From the NCBI GenBank assembly GCA_020137815.1, contig WFME01000034.1, positions 1-11,108 on the forward strand: DNA of 11,108 nt. The letters are read 5' to 3'. Shown here piece by piece: positions 1 to 9,720 of the stretch. This DNA is from Hormiphora californensis (lineage: Eukaryota; Animalia; Ctenophora). Below the pieces are notes generated by a model that worked only from the letters and a program-made list of their open reading frames with translations, made no database searches and was not told where the DNA came from. Numbering within the stretch: the stretch's first letter is position 1; the number at the start of each line of letters is the position of its first letter. A program made the position numbers and the translations under genes.

Positions 1-2230
1 TGACAAACTACCAGTGCTTTTTTCCCCTTCAACCCAACCCTAAGGGTTTGGAGAAACCCCTTTTTAAAAAAAACCCCGGCATTTGTGCATGCCCCTTAAA
101 AACATTAGGAATGCCCTTTAAAAAATACCTTTTATGCAATCCCTTAAAAACCCCATGCTATTATGAACCCTGTGACAAAACCCCCCCAGTGGAAAACCCC
201 CCCCAAAAAACATTAAGTGGTTTGGGGGGGCACCTCCGGGCTTAAAGCCCAAAACCCCCCAAAAACCCCCATTAGTGCGATCCCCTTTGAAAACCCCCAA
301 CTTTTGTGGCCGGGAGTTTTAAAATTTAAAAATTTTTAGGCAACCCCTTAAAACTTAGGTTTTGGGCCGGCAAAAAAAAAACCCTCTATTCCGGTTAAAA
401 AATTTCCCCCCCTTTTTAAAACCCCTTTCCCCGGGTAATAGTTTCCCCTTGAAAAATTTTTTTTTAAAAAAAAGGGAAAAAACCAAATTATAAAAGGTTT
501 TTTTTAAAAAAAAGGCTTTATGGATCCCCTGGACAAATTGTGTTTTTTTTCAAACCCCCGGAAAAACTTTAAACCGGGATTTCAGTCCCTTAAAAACAAA
601 CCCCTTTAAAAAGGGGGAAAATTACCGTGTTTGTGGGGAAAAAACCCCCCAAGTGTATTAGTGGTCCCCCCAAAAAAAAAAGTGCGGGGCCCCCTGTTAG
701 AAAACGCCCGGGGGGAACAGACCCCTTTAAAAACCAATAAGGGATTATGCAACCCCGTGCCCAAAATTTAAAGTCCCTTATTTTAAAATTTTTTGGGGGG
801 GGGGGGCCCGGGAAAAAAAAAACTAGGGGGGGAAAAAAAAATTTTTTTGGAAGGGTTTTTAAGAAAAAAATTCCACCCAAAAATTTTTTGGGGGGGTTTT
901 GAAAACTTCCAGTTTTGGGAGATGCCCCTGTAACAACACTTCCGTGCATTTTTCCCCTTCCCCCAAAAATTTTTCCCCATTCAAACCCCTTTTCCCCAAA
1001 AAACTTACCATGCTTTAGGCAAACCCGGAAAAAAACCCTTTTTTGCTTTTTTTGGGAAAAAACCCCCCAAAGGTTTTAGGGGCCCCCCCCGAAAACACTC
1101 CATGATTTAAACCCCCTTTAAAAAAACCCTTAAAAGTCCCCTTGGCCCCCCTGTAACAAACCCCCAGGCCTTTGTTTGGGTTTGGCCCCTTAAAACACTT
1201 ACCCGGCATTAAGTGCAGATGCCCCTGTACGCCATCAACACTTTACCATGGCTATTAGTTCGTGATTCGCCCCTGTAAAAACATCTTAGCCAGTGGCTAC
1301 TTAGATACAGATTGCCCCTGTGAACCAACGACCCTTACCAGTGCTATTATCAGTGCAGATGTAGCCTCCTCGAGTCACCTGGGTAGACTACACTTTACCT
1401 AGTGCTAATTGTTGCAGATTAGCCTATTTTCCTATAGAACACCACTTCAAATTTGCTGATGCATTTTGCAGCGAACGTACTGTCTGGTCTGTCCCTTTAT
1501 CAGACATAAACTTACCCAGTTGCTATTAGTGCAAGATCGCCCCATGTAACAACACTTACCATGTGCTATTATAGCAGATCCCCTGTGAGCCAGACACTTA
1601 CCTACCATTGCTCTTATTTCGAGTGCCCATGCACTGTTCTCTCTCCCCTCGTATAGGTCATACACTTAGCCATTGCATCGCTTAGTGCAGATCTGCCCCC
1701 TGTAGAACCTAAATCACTTAACCACTATGGCCTATTTATAGTGCATTCTTTTCATGCCCTGGTAGAACAAACACTACGCAGGTTCTTGCCTTATTAGTGC
1801 AGATGCCCCCTGTAGCACACACTTACCAGATGCTATTAGTGCAGATGCCCCTGTAGACAACACTTACCAGTGCTATTAGTGCAGATGCCCCTGTAACAAC
1901 ACTACCAGTGCTATTAGTGCAGATGCCCCTGTAGACAACACTTACCAGTGCTATTAGTGCAGATGCCCCTGTAGACAAACCACTTACCAGTGTCTATAGT
2001 GCAGATTCCCCTTTAGCAACACTTACCATGCTATTTAGTGCAGATGCCCTCTGTAACCAATCACTGTACAGCGTGCACTTGTGCATAGTCCCCCGTAATA
2101 CAACCTTACCAGTGCTTTATTGCACGATGCCCCTGTAACAACACACTTCCCAGTGCTATTAGTGCAGAGGCCCTGTAACCAACCTTACCAGTGCTATTAG
2201 TGCGATGCCACCCTGTATCTGTAATCCCAA
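1..2230. repeat. Degraded continuation of the same 40-bp minisatellite
   Basis: Clear units at 1790-1990, indel-rich units at 1200-1790 and 1990-2230. In 1-1200 only remnants survive (e.g. ACTACCAGTGCT at 7-18, GATGCCCCTGTAACAACACTT at 921-941) amid inflated homopolymers. Confidence 0.85.
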
Positions 2231-2450
2231 CACTTATCCGCCAATCGGCCTCTTCGTCTCGTGCGCCCTCGAGGATCAGTGCCTGCTTCTATTGAGCCCA
2301 TGCGCGGATCTCCCTCCGTCTCAGTCCGCTCCTCGTTGCATACGCGGCTGAAGGCGACCTAATAAGCAGAGCGAGGCTGTGCTCTCAACGAGTACGTCCA
2401 ATCCCCTTCCCACTTCTGCCTAGCTGCCTGATTAAGGATCGAAAAACGTG

Positions 2451-5057
2451 AACTCTTACCGTGGCACTATAGTGGCAGATGCCCCTGTAGACAACACTTA
2501 CCAGTGCTATTAGTGCAGATGCCCCTGTAGACAACACTTACCAGTGCTATTAGTGCAGATGCCCCTGTAGACAACACTTACCAGTGCTATTAGTGCAGAT
2601 GCCCCTGTAGACAACACTTACCAGTGCTATTAGTGCAGATGCCCCTGTAGACAACACTTACCAGTGCTATTAGTGCAGATGCCCCTGTAGACAACACTTA
2701 CCAGTGCTATTAGTGCAGATGCCCCTGTAGACAACACTTACCAGTGCTATTAGTGCAGATGCCCCTGTAGACAACACTTACCAGTGCTATTAGTGCAGAT
2801 GCCCCTGTAGACAACACTTACCAGTGCTATTAGTGCAGATGCCCCTGTAGACAACACTTACCAGTGCTATTAGTGCAGATGCCCCTGTAGACAACACTTA
2901 CCAGTGCTATTAGTGCAGATGCCCCTGTAGACAACACTTACCAGTGCTATTAGTGCAGATGCCCCTGTAGACAACACTTACCAGTGCTATTAGTGCAGAT
3001 ACCCCTGTAGTTAACACTTACCAGTGCTATTAGTGCAGATGCCCCTGTAGACAACACTTACCAGTGCTATTAGTGCAGATGCCCCTGTAGACAACACTTA
3101 CCAGTGCTATTAGTGCAGATGCCCCTGTAGACAACACTTACCAGTGCTATTAGTGCAGATGCCCCTGTAGACAACACTTACCAGTGCTATTAGTGCAGAT
3201 GCCCCTGTAGACAACACTTACCAGTGCTATTAGTGCAGATGCCCCTGTAGACAACACTTACCAGTGCTATTAGTGCAGATGCCCCTGTAGACAACACTTA
3301 CCAGTGCTATTAGTGCAGATGCCCCTGTAGACAACACTTACCAGTGCTATTAGTGCAGATGCCCCTGTAGACAACACTTACCAGTGCTATTAGTGCAGAT
3401 GCCCCTGTAGACAACACTTACCAGTGCTATTAGTGCAGATGCCCCTGTAGACAACACTTACCAGTGCTATTAGTGCAGATGCCCCTGTAGACAACACTTA
3501 CCAGTGCTATTAGTGCAGATGCCCCTGTAGACAACACTTACCAGTGCTATTAGTGCAGATGCCCCTGTAGACAACACTTACCAGTGCTATTAGTGCAGAT
3601 GCCCCTGTAGACAACACTTACCAGTGCTATTAGTGCAGATGCCCCTGTAGACAACACTTACCAGTGCTATTAGTGCAGATGCCCCTGTAGACAACACTTA
3701 CCAGTGCTATTAGTGCAGATGCCCCTGTAGACAACACTTACCAGTGCTATTAGTGCAGATGCCCCTGTAGACAACACTTACCAGTGCTATTAGTGCAGAT
3801 GCCCCTGTAGACAACACTTACCAGTGCTATTAGTGCAGATGCCCCTGTAGACAACACTTACCAGTGCTATTAGTGCAGATGCCCCTGTAGACAACACTTA
3901 CCAGTGCTATTAGTGCAGATGCCCCTGTAGACAACACTTACCAGTGCTATTAGTGCAGATGCCCCTGTAGACAACACTTACCAGTGCTATTAGTGCAGAT
4001 GCCCCTGTAGACAACACTTACCAGTGCTATTAGTGCAGATGCCCCTGTAGACAACACTTACCAGTGCTATTAGTGCAGATGCCCCTGTAGACAACACTTA
4101 CCAGTGCTATTAGTGCAGATGCCCCTGTAGACAACACTTACCAGTGCTATTAGTGCAGATGCCCCTGTAGACAACACTTACCAGTGCTATTAGTGCAGAT
4201 GCCCCTGTAGACAACACTTACCAGTGCTATTAGTGCAGATGCCCCTGTAGACAACACTTACCAGTGCTATTAGTGCAGATGCCCCTGTAGACAACACTTA
4301 CCAGTGCTATTAGTGCAGATGCCCCTGTAGACAACACTTACCAGTGCTATTAGTGCAGATGCCCCTGTAGACAACACTTACCAGTGCTATTAGTGCAGAT
4401 GCCCCTGTAGACAACACTTACCAGTGCTATTAGTGCAGATGCCCCTGTAGACAACACTTACCAGTGCTATTAGTGCAGATGCCCCTGTAGACAACACTTA
4501 CCAGTGCTATTAGTGCAGATGCCCCTGTAGACAACACTTACCAGTGCTATTAGTGCAGATGCCCCTGTAGACAACACTTACCAGTGCTATTAGTGCAGAT
4601 GCCCCTGTAGACAACACTTACCAGTGCTATTAGTGCAGATGCCCCTGTAGACAACACTTACCAGTGCTATTAGTGCAGATGCCCCTGTAAACAACACTTA
4701 CCAGTGCTATTAGTGCAGATGCCCCTGTAGACAACACTTACCAGTGCTATTAGTGCAGATGCCCCTGTAGACAACACTTACCAGTGCTATTAGTGCAGAT
4801 GCCCCTGTAGACAACACTTACCAGTGCTATTAGTGCAGATGCCCCTGTAGACAACACTTACCAGTGCTATTAGTGCAGATGCCCCTGTAGACAACACTTA
4901 CCAGTGCTATTAGTGCAGATGCCCCTGTAGACAACACTTACCAGTGCTATTAGTACAGATACCCCTGTAGACAACACTTACCAGTGCTATTAGTGCAGAT
5001 GCCCCTGTAGACAACACTTACCAGTGCTATTAGTGCAGATGCCCCTGTAAACAACAC
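2451..5057. repeat. 40-bp minisatellite, near-perfect part (~65 copies), unit CCAGTGCTATTAGTGCAGATGCCCCTGTAGACAACACTTA
   Basis: Exact 40-bp period from 2481 to 5040 (64 units) with rare variants at 3001, 3011-3012, 4690, 4955, 4961 and 5050. There are no spacers. The last unit overlaps the 3' end of exon K2. Confidence 0.99.
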
Positions 5058-5144
5058 GGTGATTTCTTCCTGTTAAGCAACTCTCAGTCCTCAAGTGACA
5101 CTCGTTGTAGTACGTTTTACCGTCGCTACACACACAGCGTGTTT
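5022..5144 (-). CDS. Exon K2: remainder of the Kazal domain completing the follistatin domain begun in F2
   Basis: TACTTTCAG| acceptor, KHAVC[G]SDGKTYYNECHLRTESCLTGRNHRVVYRGICTNST, then G|GTAAGT donor. One G must be restored near 5129 (123 nt seen, 124 expected). Joined to F2 it gives C-NSD-C-PVEKHAV-C, the canonical Kazal C-x3-C-x7-C spacing. Confidence 0.88.
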
Positions 5145-5178
5145 CTGAAAGTAGTATAGTGAGAGGAGACCCCTTTTA

Positions 5179-5201
5179 GCTGCCACACACAGCGTGTTTC
5201 T
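5179..5201 (-). repeat. Intronic duplicate of the first 21 nt of exon K2 with its own AG acceptor
   Basis: TTTCCTCTAG|AAACACGCTGTGTGTGGCAGC TAA encodes KHAVCGS-stop, 55 bp upstream of the true exon start. Confidence 0.85.
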
Positions 5202-5508
5202 AGAGGAAATGACGCGGTTTTTGGGTCACAGCGTGGATCGCAAAGCACTTATATGGAGCTGAAGACGTCTGACATAGATCAGTCGAAAGCTCCTGTTCTT
5301 AATTGAATATTAGTACTGCAAAATCGTTGTTTCTCTTATATGGAGTCACATGGCCGTTCATTGTGGTTGATTAGGATCGCAAATGAAGCAATTTTGAAGT
5401 GTGTTGCTTTAAAGTTTTTCCCTTTGGTTACCGTTAATAAGTAAATAACTAATTCTTTATCTAATTAGTAAACAACTAATTAGTCAACAAATTATCAGCT
5501 AATAATAC

Positions 5509-5610
5509 CTCGACAGGGCAGTCGCTGTTACAGACACACGTTGGTCCTCTCCTCCTCGTGTTTCTACACACTTGTCCCCAGGGGCATGTTATCATACTAC
5601 ACTTCGTCCT
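5509..5610 (-). CDS. Exon F2: follistatin N-terminal (FOLN, EGF-like) module plus the first two Kazal cysteines
   Basis: (CT)nCTACAG| acceptor, then a 102-nt open frame RTKCSMITCPWGQVCRNTRRRGPTCVCNSDCPVE, then a phase-0 |GTATTA donor. The Cys spacing C-x4-C-x5-C-x9-C-V-C-x3-C is typical of follistatin domains. Confidence 0.88.
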
Positions 5611-5614
5611 CTGT

Positions 5615-5675
<61 letters not shown>
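5615..5675. repeat. (GA)n microsatellite; reads (CT)n on the minus strand and forms the polypyrimidine tract of exon F2
   Basis: About 30 GA units immediately adjacent to the CTACAG acceptor at 5616-5611. Confidence 0.95.
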
Positions 5676-5679
<4 letters not shown>

Positions 5680-5777
5680 CGAGATATAATAGTCAGAGAG
5701 AGCTCATAAGAGATCTCTCTCTCTCTAAGCTGCTAGCATCTTTCTCTATATCTAGCTGATATACTCTCTCTTCCTCC

Positions 5778-5935
5778 CCGTAGACAGGGCCCCATAATGT
5801 TTGAAGACAACATTGCTTTTTGTCTCACATGAGGATCGTCTCAGATGGCAGACAGTCTGATACGTCCTGCCATCAGATCCACAAACTTGTCGAGTTGCGT
5901 GATCCTCGCAACTTTCTAAACATCGTTCCCTCTCT
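5778..5935 (-). CDS. Exon K1: complete Kazal domain
   Basis: Acceptor ATTTCAG|A (phase 2, completing CC+A = Pro from the K0 donor), then ERERCLESCEDHATRQVCGSDGRTYQTVCHLRRSSCETKSNVVFKHYG. Removing one base from the G-run at 5790-5793 gives PCL and supplies the sixth Cys. The donor is not legible, so the end coordinate is approximate. Lies inside ORF 5752..6045. Confidence 0.85.
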
Positions 5936-6732
5936 CTGAAATATTGGGTCAACTTTAGTTTTTCAGGACTTCCTCCTCTGAAAATTGGGGGAGTCACTGT
6001 GATTTCTCCAGGGTTTTCAAATCTCTCTGAAATATGGGGAGTCAACTTTATTTTTCAGGGTTTCCATCTCTCTGAAAAATTGGGGGAGTCAATTTAGTTT
6101 TCAGGGTTTCCCTCTCTCTGATCTCTCGCAATATTGGGGGAGGTCAACTTAGTTTGTCACGGGTTCCCTCTCTCTGACTTTGGGGAGTCAACTTTAGTTC
6201 TTCAGGTTTTCCCTCTCTCTAAATATTGGGGAGTCAACTTTAGTTGTCAGGTTTCCACTCTCTGAGATATTGGGGGGGAGTCACTTTTAGTTTTTCACAG
6301 GGTTTTTCCCTCTCTCGTGAGATATTGGGGGGTCAACTTTAGTTTTCAAGGGTTTCCATCTATCTGAGATATTGGGGGGGGGTCAACTTTTAGTTTCGGT
6401 TTTCCCCTCTCTCGGAGATATTGGGGAGTCAACTTTAGTTTTCAGGGTTTCCCTCTCTCTGAGATATTGGGGAGTCAACTTTAGTTTTCAGGGTTTCCCT
6501 CTCTCTGAGATATTGGGGAGTCAACTTTAGTTTTCAGGGTTTCCATCTCTCTGAAATATTGGGGGAGTCAACTTTAGTTTTCAGGGTTTCCCTCTCTCTG
6601 AGATATTGGGGGAGTCAACTTTAGTTTTCAGGGTTTCCCTCTCTCTGAAATATTGGGGGAGTCAACTTTAGTTTTCAGGGTTTCCCTCTCCCTCTGAAAT
6701 ATTGGGGGAGTCAACTTTAGTTTCCAGGGTTT
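5926..6732. repeat. 46-47-bp minisatellite, 17 copies, unit TTTCCCTCTCTCTGAGATATTGGGGAGTCAACTTTAGTTTTCAGGG
   Basis: Units counted by eye; cleanest at 6421-6730 (period 46-47) and noisier towards 5970-6420. The first unit overlaps the start of exon K1. Confidence 0.97.
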
Positions 6733-6931: not shown

Positions 6932-8420
6932 TAGTCCAGGAAAAGTTCTAAAAAAATAGGCCAAATTTCGGCATTTCTGCATAAAAGCAAATTCCGGTTG
7001 ATTTTGGTCAATTCGAGTATGCTGATCACGACTATAAACTTTTAGTGAACTTTTTCGATGGGGAAAGTGGCTTAATTGGCCTTAATTGGCCTTAATTGTA
7101 AATGTGTCTAAAATATATTCTGCCTAGCTCAAAAAATCAGGAAGAATTCACTGATTATCGAAAAAAATATTTTCAGATTTTATTTGTGTCGAAAATAGGC
7201 GGAATTGGCCTAATTGGGCATAATTGGGTGTAATTACTAGAATTCAAAATGTATTCTGCATAGCTCAAAAAAATCGGGATAAATTCACTGATTATCGGAA
7301 AAATATTTTCAGATTTTATTTGTGTCGAAAATAGGCGGAATTTGCCTAATTGGGCATAATTGGGCGTAATTACTAGAATTTAAAGTTTATCAAAAATGAG
7401 TTTTATACAGCTTAAAAAATCGAGAAAAATAAGCTGATTATCAGAAAAATACTATTGGAATTCATTTTTGTCTCAATTAGACGGTAGAGCTAATTAAAAA
7501 CCAATTAACTCACCAAATTGATGATGCGTGACATAAATGAGCCTCAGGAATGAGAAATTCAACTTAAAAAGCTATTTCTTCACTAATTGTCCCCAAGGGT
7601 CTCTCCTAACACCACAGAAAATCCTAACATCCGGTGCGAGGACAACAGTTCATTTCCGGGGTATTGTACAAGCACATCATGTGCTGTGAGCGAGAAACTG
7701 AAAATCGTAAAAATCGGAGTTTTGGACCCGGAAAAAGATCGCACCGGATGTTAGGATTTTCTGTGGTGTTAGGAGAGACCCTTGGGGACACATTAGTGAA
7801 GAAATTAGCTTTTTAAGTTGAATTTCTCATTCCTGAGGCTCATTTATGTCGCACATCATCAATTTGGTGAGTTAATTGGTTTTTAATTAGCTCTACCGTC
7901 TAATTGAGACAAAAATGAATTCCAGTAGTATTTTTCTGATAATCAGCTTATTTTTCTCGATTTTTTAAGCTGTATAAAACTCATTTTTGATAAACTTTAA
8001 ATTCTAGTAATTACGCCCAATTATGCCCAATTAGGCAAATTCCGCCTATTTTCGACACAAATAAATCTGAAAATATTTTTTCCGATAATCATGAAGTTTT
8101 TTCCCGATTTTTTGAGCTATGCAGAAACTTTTGAATTCTATTTAATTACACCCAATTATGCCCAATTAGGAAATTTTTCCCCTATTTTCGACACAAAAAA
8201 ATCTGAAAATTTTTCCGATAATCATGATTTTTTCCTGATTTTTTGAGCAGGCAAATATATTTTGACCATTTACAATTAAGCCATTGGCCAATGCCCTTTC
8301 CCCTCGAAAAAGTTCCAAAAAGTTTTTATCGTGACCCAAATCTCGTTTTGCCCAAAAATCCCCCGGGAAATTTTGCTTTTATGCAAAATGCCGATTTTAA
8401 AAATGACGGGGCCGGGACTA
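6932..8420. mobile_element. Foldback/MITE-like non-autonomous element: ~0.7-kb inverted arms around a 99-bp spacer
   Basis: The left arm (~6964-7639) is the reverse complement of the right arm (7739-~8398), e.g. ATCCTAACATCCGGTGCGA versus TCGCACCGGATGTTAGGAT. The spacer is 7640-7738. The outer ends TAGTCCAGG (6932) and CCGGGACTA (8420) are also inverted. No transposase ORF. The inverted repeat is directly visible; the transposon call is inference. Confidence 0.65.
7110..7380. repeat. Two ~135-bp direct subrepeats inside the left arm (a more diverged third follows to ~7495; mirrored in the right arm)
   Basis: TATTCTGC(C/A)TAGCTCAAAAAA...TTCAGATTTTATTTGTGTCGAAAATAGGCGGAATT...TAATTACTAGAATT occurs at ~7117-7244 and ~7252-7380. 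Confidence 0.9.
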
Positions 8421-8426
8421 AAAAAC

Positions 8427-8461
8427 CTCACGCACAGGGCTGGGGCAGGCCCCTTAACTGC
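8427..8461 (-). repeat. Intronic duplicate of the 3' end and donor of exon K0
   Basis: GCAGTTAAGGGGCCTGCCCCAGCCCTGTGC|GTGAG versus exon GCAGTTCACAGGGGAGCCTGCCCCAGCCCTGTACC|GTGAG. Confidence 0.85.
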
Positions 8462-8529: not shown

Positions 8530-8655
8530 GGTACAGGGCTGGGGCAGGCTCCCCTGTGAACTGCAGTCACCGTGTTAGGGGCATTACAATTCCTCATTTT
8601 CAACAAACACATGTTAGTGTACGTCTCACCATTGTTCCCACACACAAAACTGTTC
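8530..8655 (-). CDS. Exon K0 of a follistatin/Kazal multi-domain protein (C-terminal part of a Kazal domain)
   Basis: Manual minus-strand translation gives NSFVCGNNGETYTNMCLLKMRNCNAPNTVTAVHRGACPSPV, matching the Kazal pattern VCGxxGxTYxNxCxLxxxxC...HxGxC. It ends CC|GTGAGT (phase-2 donor at 8529). The 5' boundary is uncertain: 8655 by analogy with the copy at 9717, or 8675 after TTCCTCAG if there is a 1-base error. Confidence 0.85.
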
Positions 8656-8681
8656 CGGAGGGAGGATTGTTACATCTGAGG

Positions 8682-9670: not shown

Positions 9671-9720
9671 ACATGTTAGTATAAGTCTCACCATTGTTCC
9701 CACACACAAAACTGTTCCTG
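9671..9720 (-). pseudogene. Truncated duplicate of the 5' part of exon K0 with an intact acceptor
   Basis: TTTCTACAG|GAACAGTTTTGTGTGTGGGAACAATGGTGAGACTTATACTAACATGT (NSFVCGNNGETYTNM) matches 8655-8609 at 45/47 nt, then breaks into (CT)n. Confidence 0.8.

What the first reader, a model, noticed from the sequence alone, without database searches (positions are those of the whole stretch)
1..5057. A ~5-kb minisatellite that is an array of 5' splice sites built from the end of a Kazal exon
On the minus strand the unit is GTAA + GTGTTGTCTACAGGGGCATCTGCACTAATAGCACTG: four intron bases plus the last 36 nt of exon K2 (VVYRGICTNST). Every junction recreates CTG|GTAAGT, so the pre-mRNA carries about 65 clean and perhaps about 120 total identical consensus donors. 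Reading past the first donor gives GKCCLQGHLH-stop, so only the first donor keeps the frame and use of any later one introduces a stop. Copy number could therefore tune productive versus truncated or NMD-targeted transcript, or load U1 snRNP (inference).
Basis: partly seen in the sequence, partly recalled or inferred. Interest (0 to 1): 0.75.

Follow-up and report, generated by a model that had tools for sequence, protein, structure and literature searches.

The report
Splice-donor minisatellite in a Kazal gene
The last 36 bases of an exon and its splice signal are repeated at least 64 times into the next intron of an animal Kazal-domain gene, a repeat type already known from human and lancelet genes; it is likely harmless because splicing likely uses only the copy next to the exon.

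Summary
The array is real: 64.7 copies of a 40-nt unit at 2470-5057, with 64 exact CTG|GTAAGT sites, also present in short-read contigs of two samples. Below 2470 the window is noisy, so 'about 120 identical donors' is not shown; depth in one sample suggests roughly 57 copies per haploid genome. The exon is a Kazal exon. The early stop is confirmed but unremarkable: 53% of shuffled units have one. One RNA contig leaves the exon 4 nt past the first donor and holds no full unit. That fits first-unit splicing but has other readings. This is a 'mirage' exon-boundary minisatellite, as in human F7 and CBS and lancelet globins; length-dependent tuning has a precedent (ABCA7) but no support here. The same gene also has acceptor arrays at two exons, one with 1, 2 and at least 4 copies in three sources. 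This scan found the same kind of array before on other DNA (19 notes, at least 13 genomes). Verdict: new member of a known kind, low interest.

The parts
2470..5057 (-). Clean 40-nt donor minisatellite: 64.7 copies, 64 CTG|GTAAGT sites, the first (5022|5021) being the exon-proximal donor
   Evidence: short-read contigs
1200..2230 (-). About 24 noisy further copies of the same unit (75-90% matching, many indels); likely sequencing or consensus noise
1..1200 (-). Homopolymer-rich low-quality sequence with weak residual likeness to the unit; the far end of the array is not in the window
2230..2470 (.). About 240 nt largely unrelated to the unit, inside the array; unexplained, possibly read noise
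5022..5144 (-). Exon K2, Kazal domain; one base missing in the window near 5128
   Evidence: Pfam Kazal_2 E 5.5e-08; inserted base in X5 contigs, open frame in X1 contigs, RNA contig of X10 on 5018-5097
5125..5201 (-). Acceptor-side repeat of exon K2 (about 55 nt: 34 intron plus 21 exon); 2 acceptor copies in the window, 1 in X1, at least about 4 in X5; the upstream copy reads into a stop
5509..5610 (-). Cys-rich exon that looks like a follistatin N-terminal module (label recalled; no Pfam hit above cut-off)
   Evidence: covered by X1 and X5 contigs
5780..5935 (-). Exon K1, Kazal domain; its donor lies in noisy sequence and was not fixed
   Evidence: Pfam Kazal_2 E 6.6e-11
5926..6732 (-). 47-nt acceptor minisatellite, about 17 copies, 37 intron plus 10 exon letters, ending at the K1 acceptor; an upstream copy reads into a stop
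8530..8675 (-). Exon E0, Kazal domain
   Evidence: Pfam Kazal_2 E 3.6e-10
8427..8453 (-). Single partial copy of the E0 exon end with its GTGAG donor, about 98 nt into the intron (26 matches over 29 columns)
9671..9718 (-). Single 48-nt copy of an inner 5' part of exon E0 (46 of 48 identical) behind an AG, 1062 nt upstream

Best explanation
This is an exon-boundary ('mirage') minisatellite: 40 bases spanning the end of a Kazal exon and the first four intron bases are tandemly repeated at least 64 times, likely through a local duplication amplified by unequal exchange or slippage, and the gene likely tolerates it because the spliceosome would pick the exon-proximal donor and remove all other copies with the intron. 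Shown: the unit, its boundaries, its homogeneity, its presence in two samples, and a stop before donor 2. Inferred: first-donor use (one RNA contig plus precedent), the mutational route, and near-neutrality. The last GT of each GTAAGT is the first two letters of the copied exon piece, so the perfect consensus at every junction needs no selection. Acceptor arrays at two exons of the same gene are the mirror case: only the exon-proximal acceptor gives an open frame.
For: Anatomy. Independent short reads hold the unit: X1 unit contig depth 2500 against flank 43.5; X5 235 records laid, many variant units. Homogenised units with a differing boundary copy (60 of 63 identical, exon copy differs at 5050) match the turnover described for mirages (PMC3087553 passages). 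The RNA contig of X10 covers 5097-5018 and then leaves with no full unit. [quoted passage not shown] Lancelet globin, Adh3 and troponin C mirages were reported not to disturb splicing. The stop is a chance-level feature. Exon E0 also ends five codons after its last cysteine, so 5022 is where an exon end is expected. The K2 acceptor repeat varies from 1 to at least about 4 copies between sources, as a drifting VNTR would.
Against: RNA evidence is 1 contig (193 nt, depth 4.1) from an environmental library; of 4 RNA-labelled runs laid, only X10 touched the exon, and it may be DNA or unspliced RNA. Its match runs 4 nt (GTAA) past 5022, exactly to the unit boundary, so first-donor splicing needs the next exon to begin with GTAA (my rough estimate: about 1 in 100). 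Contigs drop rare isoforms, so minor use of later donors is not excluded. In CBS and 6-16 the second and third donors are used, and ABCA7 length tracks expression. Three of the four longer tandem arrays seen sit on splice junctions, more than about 6-8% per array would give by chance (window chosen for one of them), which plain slippage does not explain.
Confidence: 0.75

Rival explanations
1. Length-dependent tuning: downstream donors compete or bind U1, so longer alleles give more stop-containing or skipped transcript and less protein.
For: Donors match the recalled U1 consensus at 8 of 9 positions, against 4-5 of 9 for the other donors seen in this gene. Precedent: ABCA7 VNTR of 12 to about 427 units, retention of one unit seen, expression 33% lower at the largest allele pair (PMC5954066 passages); CBS and 6-16 use nearby pseudo-donors.
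Against: No transcript with a full unit was seen (1 contig). The stop is chance-level. ABCA7 length had no effect on NMD. F7 pseudo-donors do not compete even when strengthened to a consensus value of 91. No evidence of selection on copy number was obtained.
Confidence: 0.1
2. The first unit's donor is used but leakily: the RNA contig records a +4 shifted donor (GTAA kept in the mRNA), a frameshifted by-product of the GTAAGT junction.
For: The X10 match ends exactly 4 nt into the intron at a GT. The 30 loose letters are open both in the exon's frame and in the frame that a junction at 5022 without GTAA would give, and the latter ends in Glu-Pro-Val as before a Kazal cysteine (motif recalled).
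Against: The +4 site has a poor U1 match (sequence), a minor isoform is unlikely to be the one assembled at depth 4, and the expected earlier cysteine of a Kazal domain is missing from those residues. This changes the reading of one contig, not the class of the repeat.
Confidence: 0.07
3. Newborn intron: the duplication happened inside an exon that originally ran on through GTAA; the junction created the GTAAGT donor, and the array is removed as a new intron or is absent from some alleles.
For: The RNA contig's match stops exactly at the unit boundary 5018, as an unduplicated allele would. The loose 30 nt are 47% GC like the exons (46-53%) rather than the introns (28-39%) and are open in frame; 98 of 831 intronic 30-mers meet both tests. 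Each unit also holds a branch-like CACTAAT 25 nt before an acceptor-like CTACAG. Intron gain by tandem duplication is an accepted mechanism (PMC3443670 passages).
Against: Precise excision needs AG|GT; the donor is CTG|GT and no AG in the unit is followed by GT. Use of the in-unit acceptor would add 23 nt and shift the frame. 5022 lies where Kazal exons of this gene end anyway. GC content and an open frame fit a spliced next exon equally well.
Confidence: 0.05
4. The array is an assembly or read artefact.
For: The window is noisy: frameshifts in 3 of 4 exons, homopolymer junk below 1200 and above 8750.
Against: The unit is at high depth in short-read contigs of two samples, and an X1 contig runs from the exon into the first intron base. 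Only the degraded tail is artefact-like.
Confidence: 0.03

Closest known systems
Lancelet 'mirage' minisatellites (Adh3, globins BflGb6 and BflGb9, troponin C, PGBD5); PMC3087553 and PMC3902484, passages read; the Adh3 paper itself was not held
   Same: Tandem duplications that span an exon-intron boundary, on both 5' and 3' boundaries, carry GT or AG signals, vary in copy number between haplotypes and are homogenised inside the array.
   Different: Copy number is far higher here (64 or more, against 3-6 in BflGb6). The host is probably a comb jelly (earlier notes, not tested here). Harmlessness was checked by RT-PCR there, only by one contig here.
Human F7 intron 7 37-bp VNTR, with CBS IVS13, 6-16, LMNB2 and PDGF; PMC1557585 abstract, Introduction and Discussion read
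   Same: The first unit spans the exon end, so the authentic donor is followed by identical pseudo-donors.
   Different: F7's unit is 4 nt exon plus 33 nt intron; here it is 36 nt exon plus 4 nt intron. 5-25 copies there, 64 or more here. The donor here is much closer to consensus.
Human ABCA7 intron 18 25-bp VNTR; PMC5954066, passages read
   Same: Array starts at the donor; use of the next unit's donor gives an out-of-frame product; very long alleles occur (about 427 units).
   Different: A length effect on expression and exon skipping was measured there; nothing of the kind is shown here.
Intron gain by tandem genomic duplication; PMC3443670, passages read
   Same: Tandem duplication of exon sequence that yields splice signals.
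   Different: The model needs a duplicated AGGT; this unit has none.

Membership tests
Exon-boundary ('mirage') minisatellite | Tandem repeat whose terminal unit spans an exon-intron boundary | tested here: met
   Unit is 36 exon plus 4 intron letters, 64.7 copies; the boundary is called from sequence and exon pattern
Exon-boundary ('mirage') minisatellite | The adjacent exon is a real coding exon | tested here: met
   Kazal_2 E 5.5e-08, above cut-off; open frame in X1 and X5 contigs; one RNA-library contig
Exon-boundary ('mirage') minisatellite | Copies carry the splice signal | tested here: met
   64 exact CTGGTAAGT in 2470-5057
Exon-boundary ('mirage') minisatellite | Concerted evolution inside the array, boundary copy left out | tested here: met
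   60 of 63 units identical; the exon copy differs at 5050, a variant found in 1 of 63 array units
Exon-boundary ('mirage') minisatellite | Length varies between haplotypes | tested here: inconclusive
   Donor array: about 57 per haploid genome in X1; 49 to 1528 in X5 because overlapping contig depths are summed. The K2 acceptor repeat does vary: 1, 2, at least about 4
Exon-boundary ('mirage') minisatellite | Normal splicing at the exon-proximal site | tested here: inconclusive
   One RNA contig without a full unit, but with a 4-nt overrun that has several readings
Length-dependent splicing VNTR (ABCA7 type) | Splicing or expression tracks repeat length | not testable with these tools
   No matched DNA and RNA; only contigs were served
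Length-dependent splicing VNTR (ABCA7 type) | Transcripts that use a later donor exist | tested here: inconclusive
   None in 4 RNA-labelled runs laid, of which 1 touched the exon; contigs drop rare forms
Intron gain by tandem genomic duplication | Duplicated segment holds AG|GT usable as both acceptor and donor | tested here: not met
   The three AGs of the unit are followed by TG, GG and CA; the donor is preceded by TG
Intron gain by tandem genomic duplication | Exon resumes right after the last unit | not testable with these tools
   The far end is outside the window; no genome held; two metagenome scans empty

The most novel reading that the evidence does not exclude
The array is an intron being born: a 40-nt duplication inside a Kazal exon made a perfect GTAAGT donor at its own junction and expanded, while the mRNA (or an array-less allele) still reads straight on through GTAA. 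With acceptor arrays at two more exon edges and an allele that uses a different acceptor sequence, this gene would show exon edges being rebuilt by duplication within a living, probably comb-jelly, population.
Probability: 0.05. Interest if true: 0.7.

Novelty: new member of a known kind. Interest (0 to 1): 0.22.

Why it matters
As it stands it is a large, clean example of a known repeat class. It could serve as a natural test of 5' splice-site choice: 64 or more identical near-consensus donors, in a lineage far from the mammals and lancelets where the class was studied if the comb-jelly label from earlier notes holds. My search with ctenophore and repeat terms (20 of 78 papers listed) showed no such report among those listed, which is weak evidence of absence. 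The cluster of junction repeats in one gene (one donor array, two acceptor arrays, two partial copies) hints that exon edges are duplication-prone, an open point for mirages, whose mechanism PMC3087553 calls unclear. Only the intron-birth or length-tuning readings would lift it above ordinary.

Tried and rejected
No whole genome is held for this window, so neither the array's far end, the next exon nor the genome-wide frequency of such arrays could be read. Protein searches found no orthologue: K1 against longer proteins, no candidate; K2, 2 candidates and none scoring; phmmer of K1 gave 1717 hits at E 0.001 or better, of which the 150 listed are multi-Kazal proteins at 34-51% identity, and tblastn of those 150 gave at best 53-59% per Kazal exon. 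The gene is therefore named only by its domains. The Atlas look-up gave no result. Metagenome scans for the exon end plus GTAA and for part of the RNA contig's loose end found 0 matches each. The loose end has no match in the window (score 15-17 against shuffled mean 19). RNA-labelled runs X19 and X16 gave 0 contigs and X7 only a dispersed intron repeat; this is no proof of absence. The in-unit 23-nt micro-exon idea was considered; it would shift the frame and has no RNA support. The unit folds into a modest hairpin (-9.4 kcal/mol); no shuffle control was run, so nothing is claimed. PMC10078293 (passages) gave no case of this layout in the passages shown. The look-ups for earlier notes near this locus and in relatives were empty.
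Full report
Observation. On the minus strand the window holds four coding exons followed by a tandem array. TRF gives a 40-nt array at 2470-5057, 64.7 copies, 99% matches. There are 64 exact CTGGTAAGT sites in that span, the first intron base is at 5021, and 60 of 63 full units are identical. The unit is GTAA plus a copy of the exon's last 36 nt, which differ from the exon at one synonymous base (5050). Read-through gives GKCCLQGHLH-stop, with the stop 32 nt into the intron, before the second donor.

The tail. Below 2470 the sequence decays: about 240 nt largely unrelated, about 24 noisy units in 2230-1200, then homopolymer-rich sequence that scores only modestly above shuffles (186 and 193 against maxima of 133 and 142). 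Only 4 exact CTGGTAAGT lie in 1-2469. The window also has frameshifts in three exons. I read the tail as sequencing or consensus noise, so the count of about 120 identical donors is not shown.

Independent data. No genome is held. The run search listed 19 runs, six DNA runs of one organism holding 14-45% of the sampled words. In X1 a 69-nt contig of the unit has depth 2500 against 43.5 for the exon flank, about 57 copies per haploid genome; the tool warns that depth is no true copy number, so this is rough. In X5, another sample that differs at several exon and intron sites, 235 records were laid, many of them variant units; its copy number cannot be fixed (49 to 1528). The array is therefore real and shared. 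X5 contigs carry an extra base at 5127/5128 and X1 contigs also give an open frame, so the window's frameshift in exon K2 is likely an error.

The gene. Exons at 8675-8530, 5935-about 5780 and 5144-5022 each hit Pfam Kazal_2 above the cut-off; the exon at 5610-5509 is Cys-rich with no hit above cut-off and looks like a follistatin N-terminal module (recalled). No orthologue was found. Earlier notes on other pieces of this genome call it a comb jelly; I did not test that.

RNA. Of four RNA-labelled runs laid, one (X10, oligo-dT, seawater) gave one contig of 193 nt at depth 4.1. It matches 5097-5018 with one difference whose place is not shown, then goes on for 113 nt unlike the stretch. It holds no full unit. 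The match runs 4 nt past the donor, exactly to the unit boundary. Four readings remain: spliced at 5022 to an exon starting GTAA (my estimate a little over half); a +4 donor (about a quarter to a third); DNA or unspliced RNA of an array-less allele; or an exon that originally ran on, so that the array is a new intron. The 30 loose letters shown are exon-like in GC and open in two frames. These odds are my rough judgement, not a computation. The first two readings use only the first unit.

Is the stop meaningful? No. With donor and exon end fixed, 53% of 20,000 shuffled units have a stop before donor 2, and 40 is not a multiple of three. The final GT of each GTAAGT is the start of the copied exon piece, so the duplication itself yields the consensus (sequence).

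Surroundings. The same gene has more junction repeats. A 47-nt array of about 17 copies (5926-6732) repeats the K1 acceptor with 10 exon letters. The K2 acceptor lies in a repeat of about 55 nt: two acceptor copies in the window; one in X1, where two contigs join 5124 to 5179; and at least about four in X5 (two contigs of summed depth 2047 at 5182 against flank 464). X1's single acceptor is the upstream sequence, not the exon-proximal one of the window. Upstream copies of both acceptors read into stops. Exon E0 has single partial copies of its end, with donor, and of its 5' part. Three of four longer arrays on junctions is more than the 6-8% chance per array, though the window was picked for one of them.

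Mechanism. Most likely a local duplication across the exon end was amplified and homogenised as any minisatellite is (inference), and it persists because the exon-proximal site is chosen (inference from one contig and precedent). Arrays that ran the other way would break the exon and would be lost (inference). Why exon edges are prone to this is unexplained; one idea, untested, is that repair between very different haplotypes ends where conserved exon meets diverged intron.

What is known. PMC1557585 (abstract, Introduction, Discussion) describes the F7 VNTR and lists CBS, 6-16, LMNB2 and PDGF; the most upstream donor is used, with the next two also used in CBS and 6-16. PMC3087553 and PMC3902484 (passages) describe lancelet 'mirages' on both boundaries, unstable in length, reported not to disturb splicing, and propose them as a route to intron gain. 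PMC5954066 (passages) gives the length-effect precedent, ABCA7, but reports no effect of length on NMD. PMC3443670 (passages) gives the AGGT model of intron gain, whose key feature this unit lacks. No supplements were read. The scan's own index holds 19 notes with these words from at least 13 genomes, 8 shown; they are unchecked and not counted as support.

Verdict. Real, correctly described in its clean part, and a new, unusually long member of a known class. The regulatory reading is possible but unsupported (about 10%); intron birth is a long shot (about 5%). Interest 0.22.

Noticed in passing
window 5926-6732 (-): [quoted passage not shown]
   Followed up: partly
window 5125-5201 (-): The acceptor of exon K2 is itself a variable repeat of about 55 nt: 1 copy in X1, 2 in the window, at least about 4 in X5; X1 keeps the upstream acceptor sequence, so alleles likely splice at different intron ends.
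   Followed up: partly
window 8427-8453 and 9671-9718 (-): Single partial copies of exon E0's end with its donor and of its 5' part behind an AG; possible seeds or remnants of junction arrays.
   Followed up: partly
window 6968-8394: Long inverted repeat, arms 6968-7639 and 7739-8394, 624 of 642 aligned bases identical, 99-nt spacer, with 131-136-nt subrepeats; a foldback-type element or a read artefact.
   Followed up: no
window 5257-5337: Short dispersed repeat in the intron before K2: many contigs with different flanks, summed depth up to 40,000 in X1; two contigs or alleles skip 5250-5335, so it may be polymorphic.
   Followed up: no
each 40-nt unit, e.g. 4982-5021 (-): The unit also has a branch-point-like CACTAAT 25 nt before an acceptor-like CTACAG, framing a possible 23-nt micro-exon up to the next donor (consensus motifs recalled); both come from the exon's codons.
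   Followed up: partly
window 5615-5775 (-): The short intron after K1 starts GA-rich and ends in (CT)35, a weak inverted pair (71%); the sequence is noisy and the K1 donor could not be placed.
   Followed up: no
window 2230-2470: About 240 nt of GC-richer sequence unrelated to the unit inside the array; unexplained.
   Followed up: no
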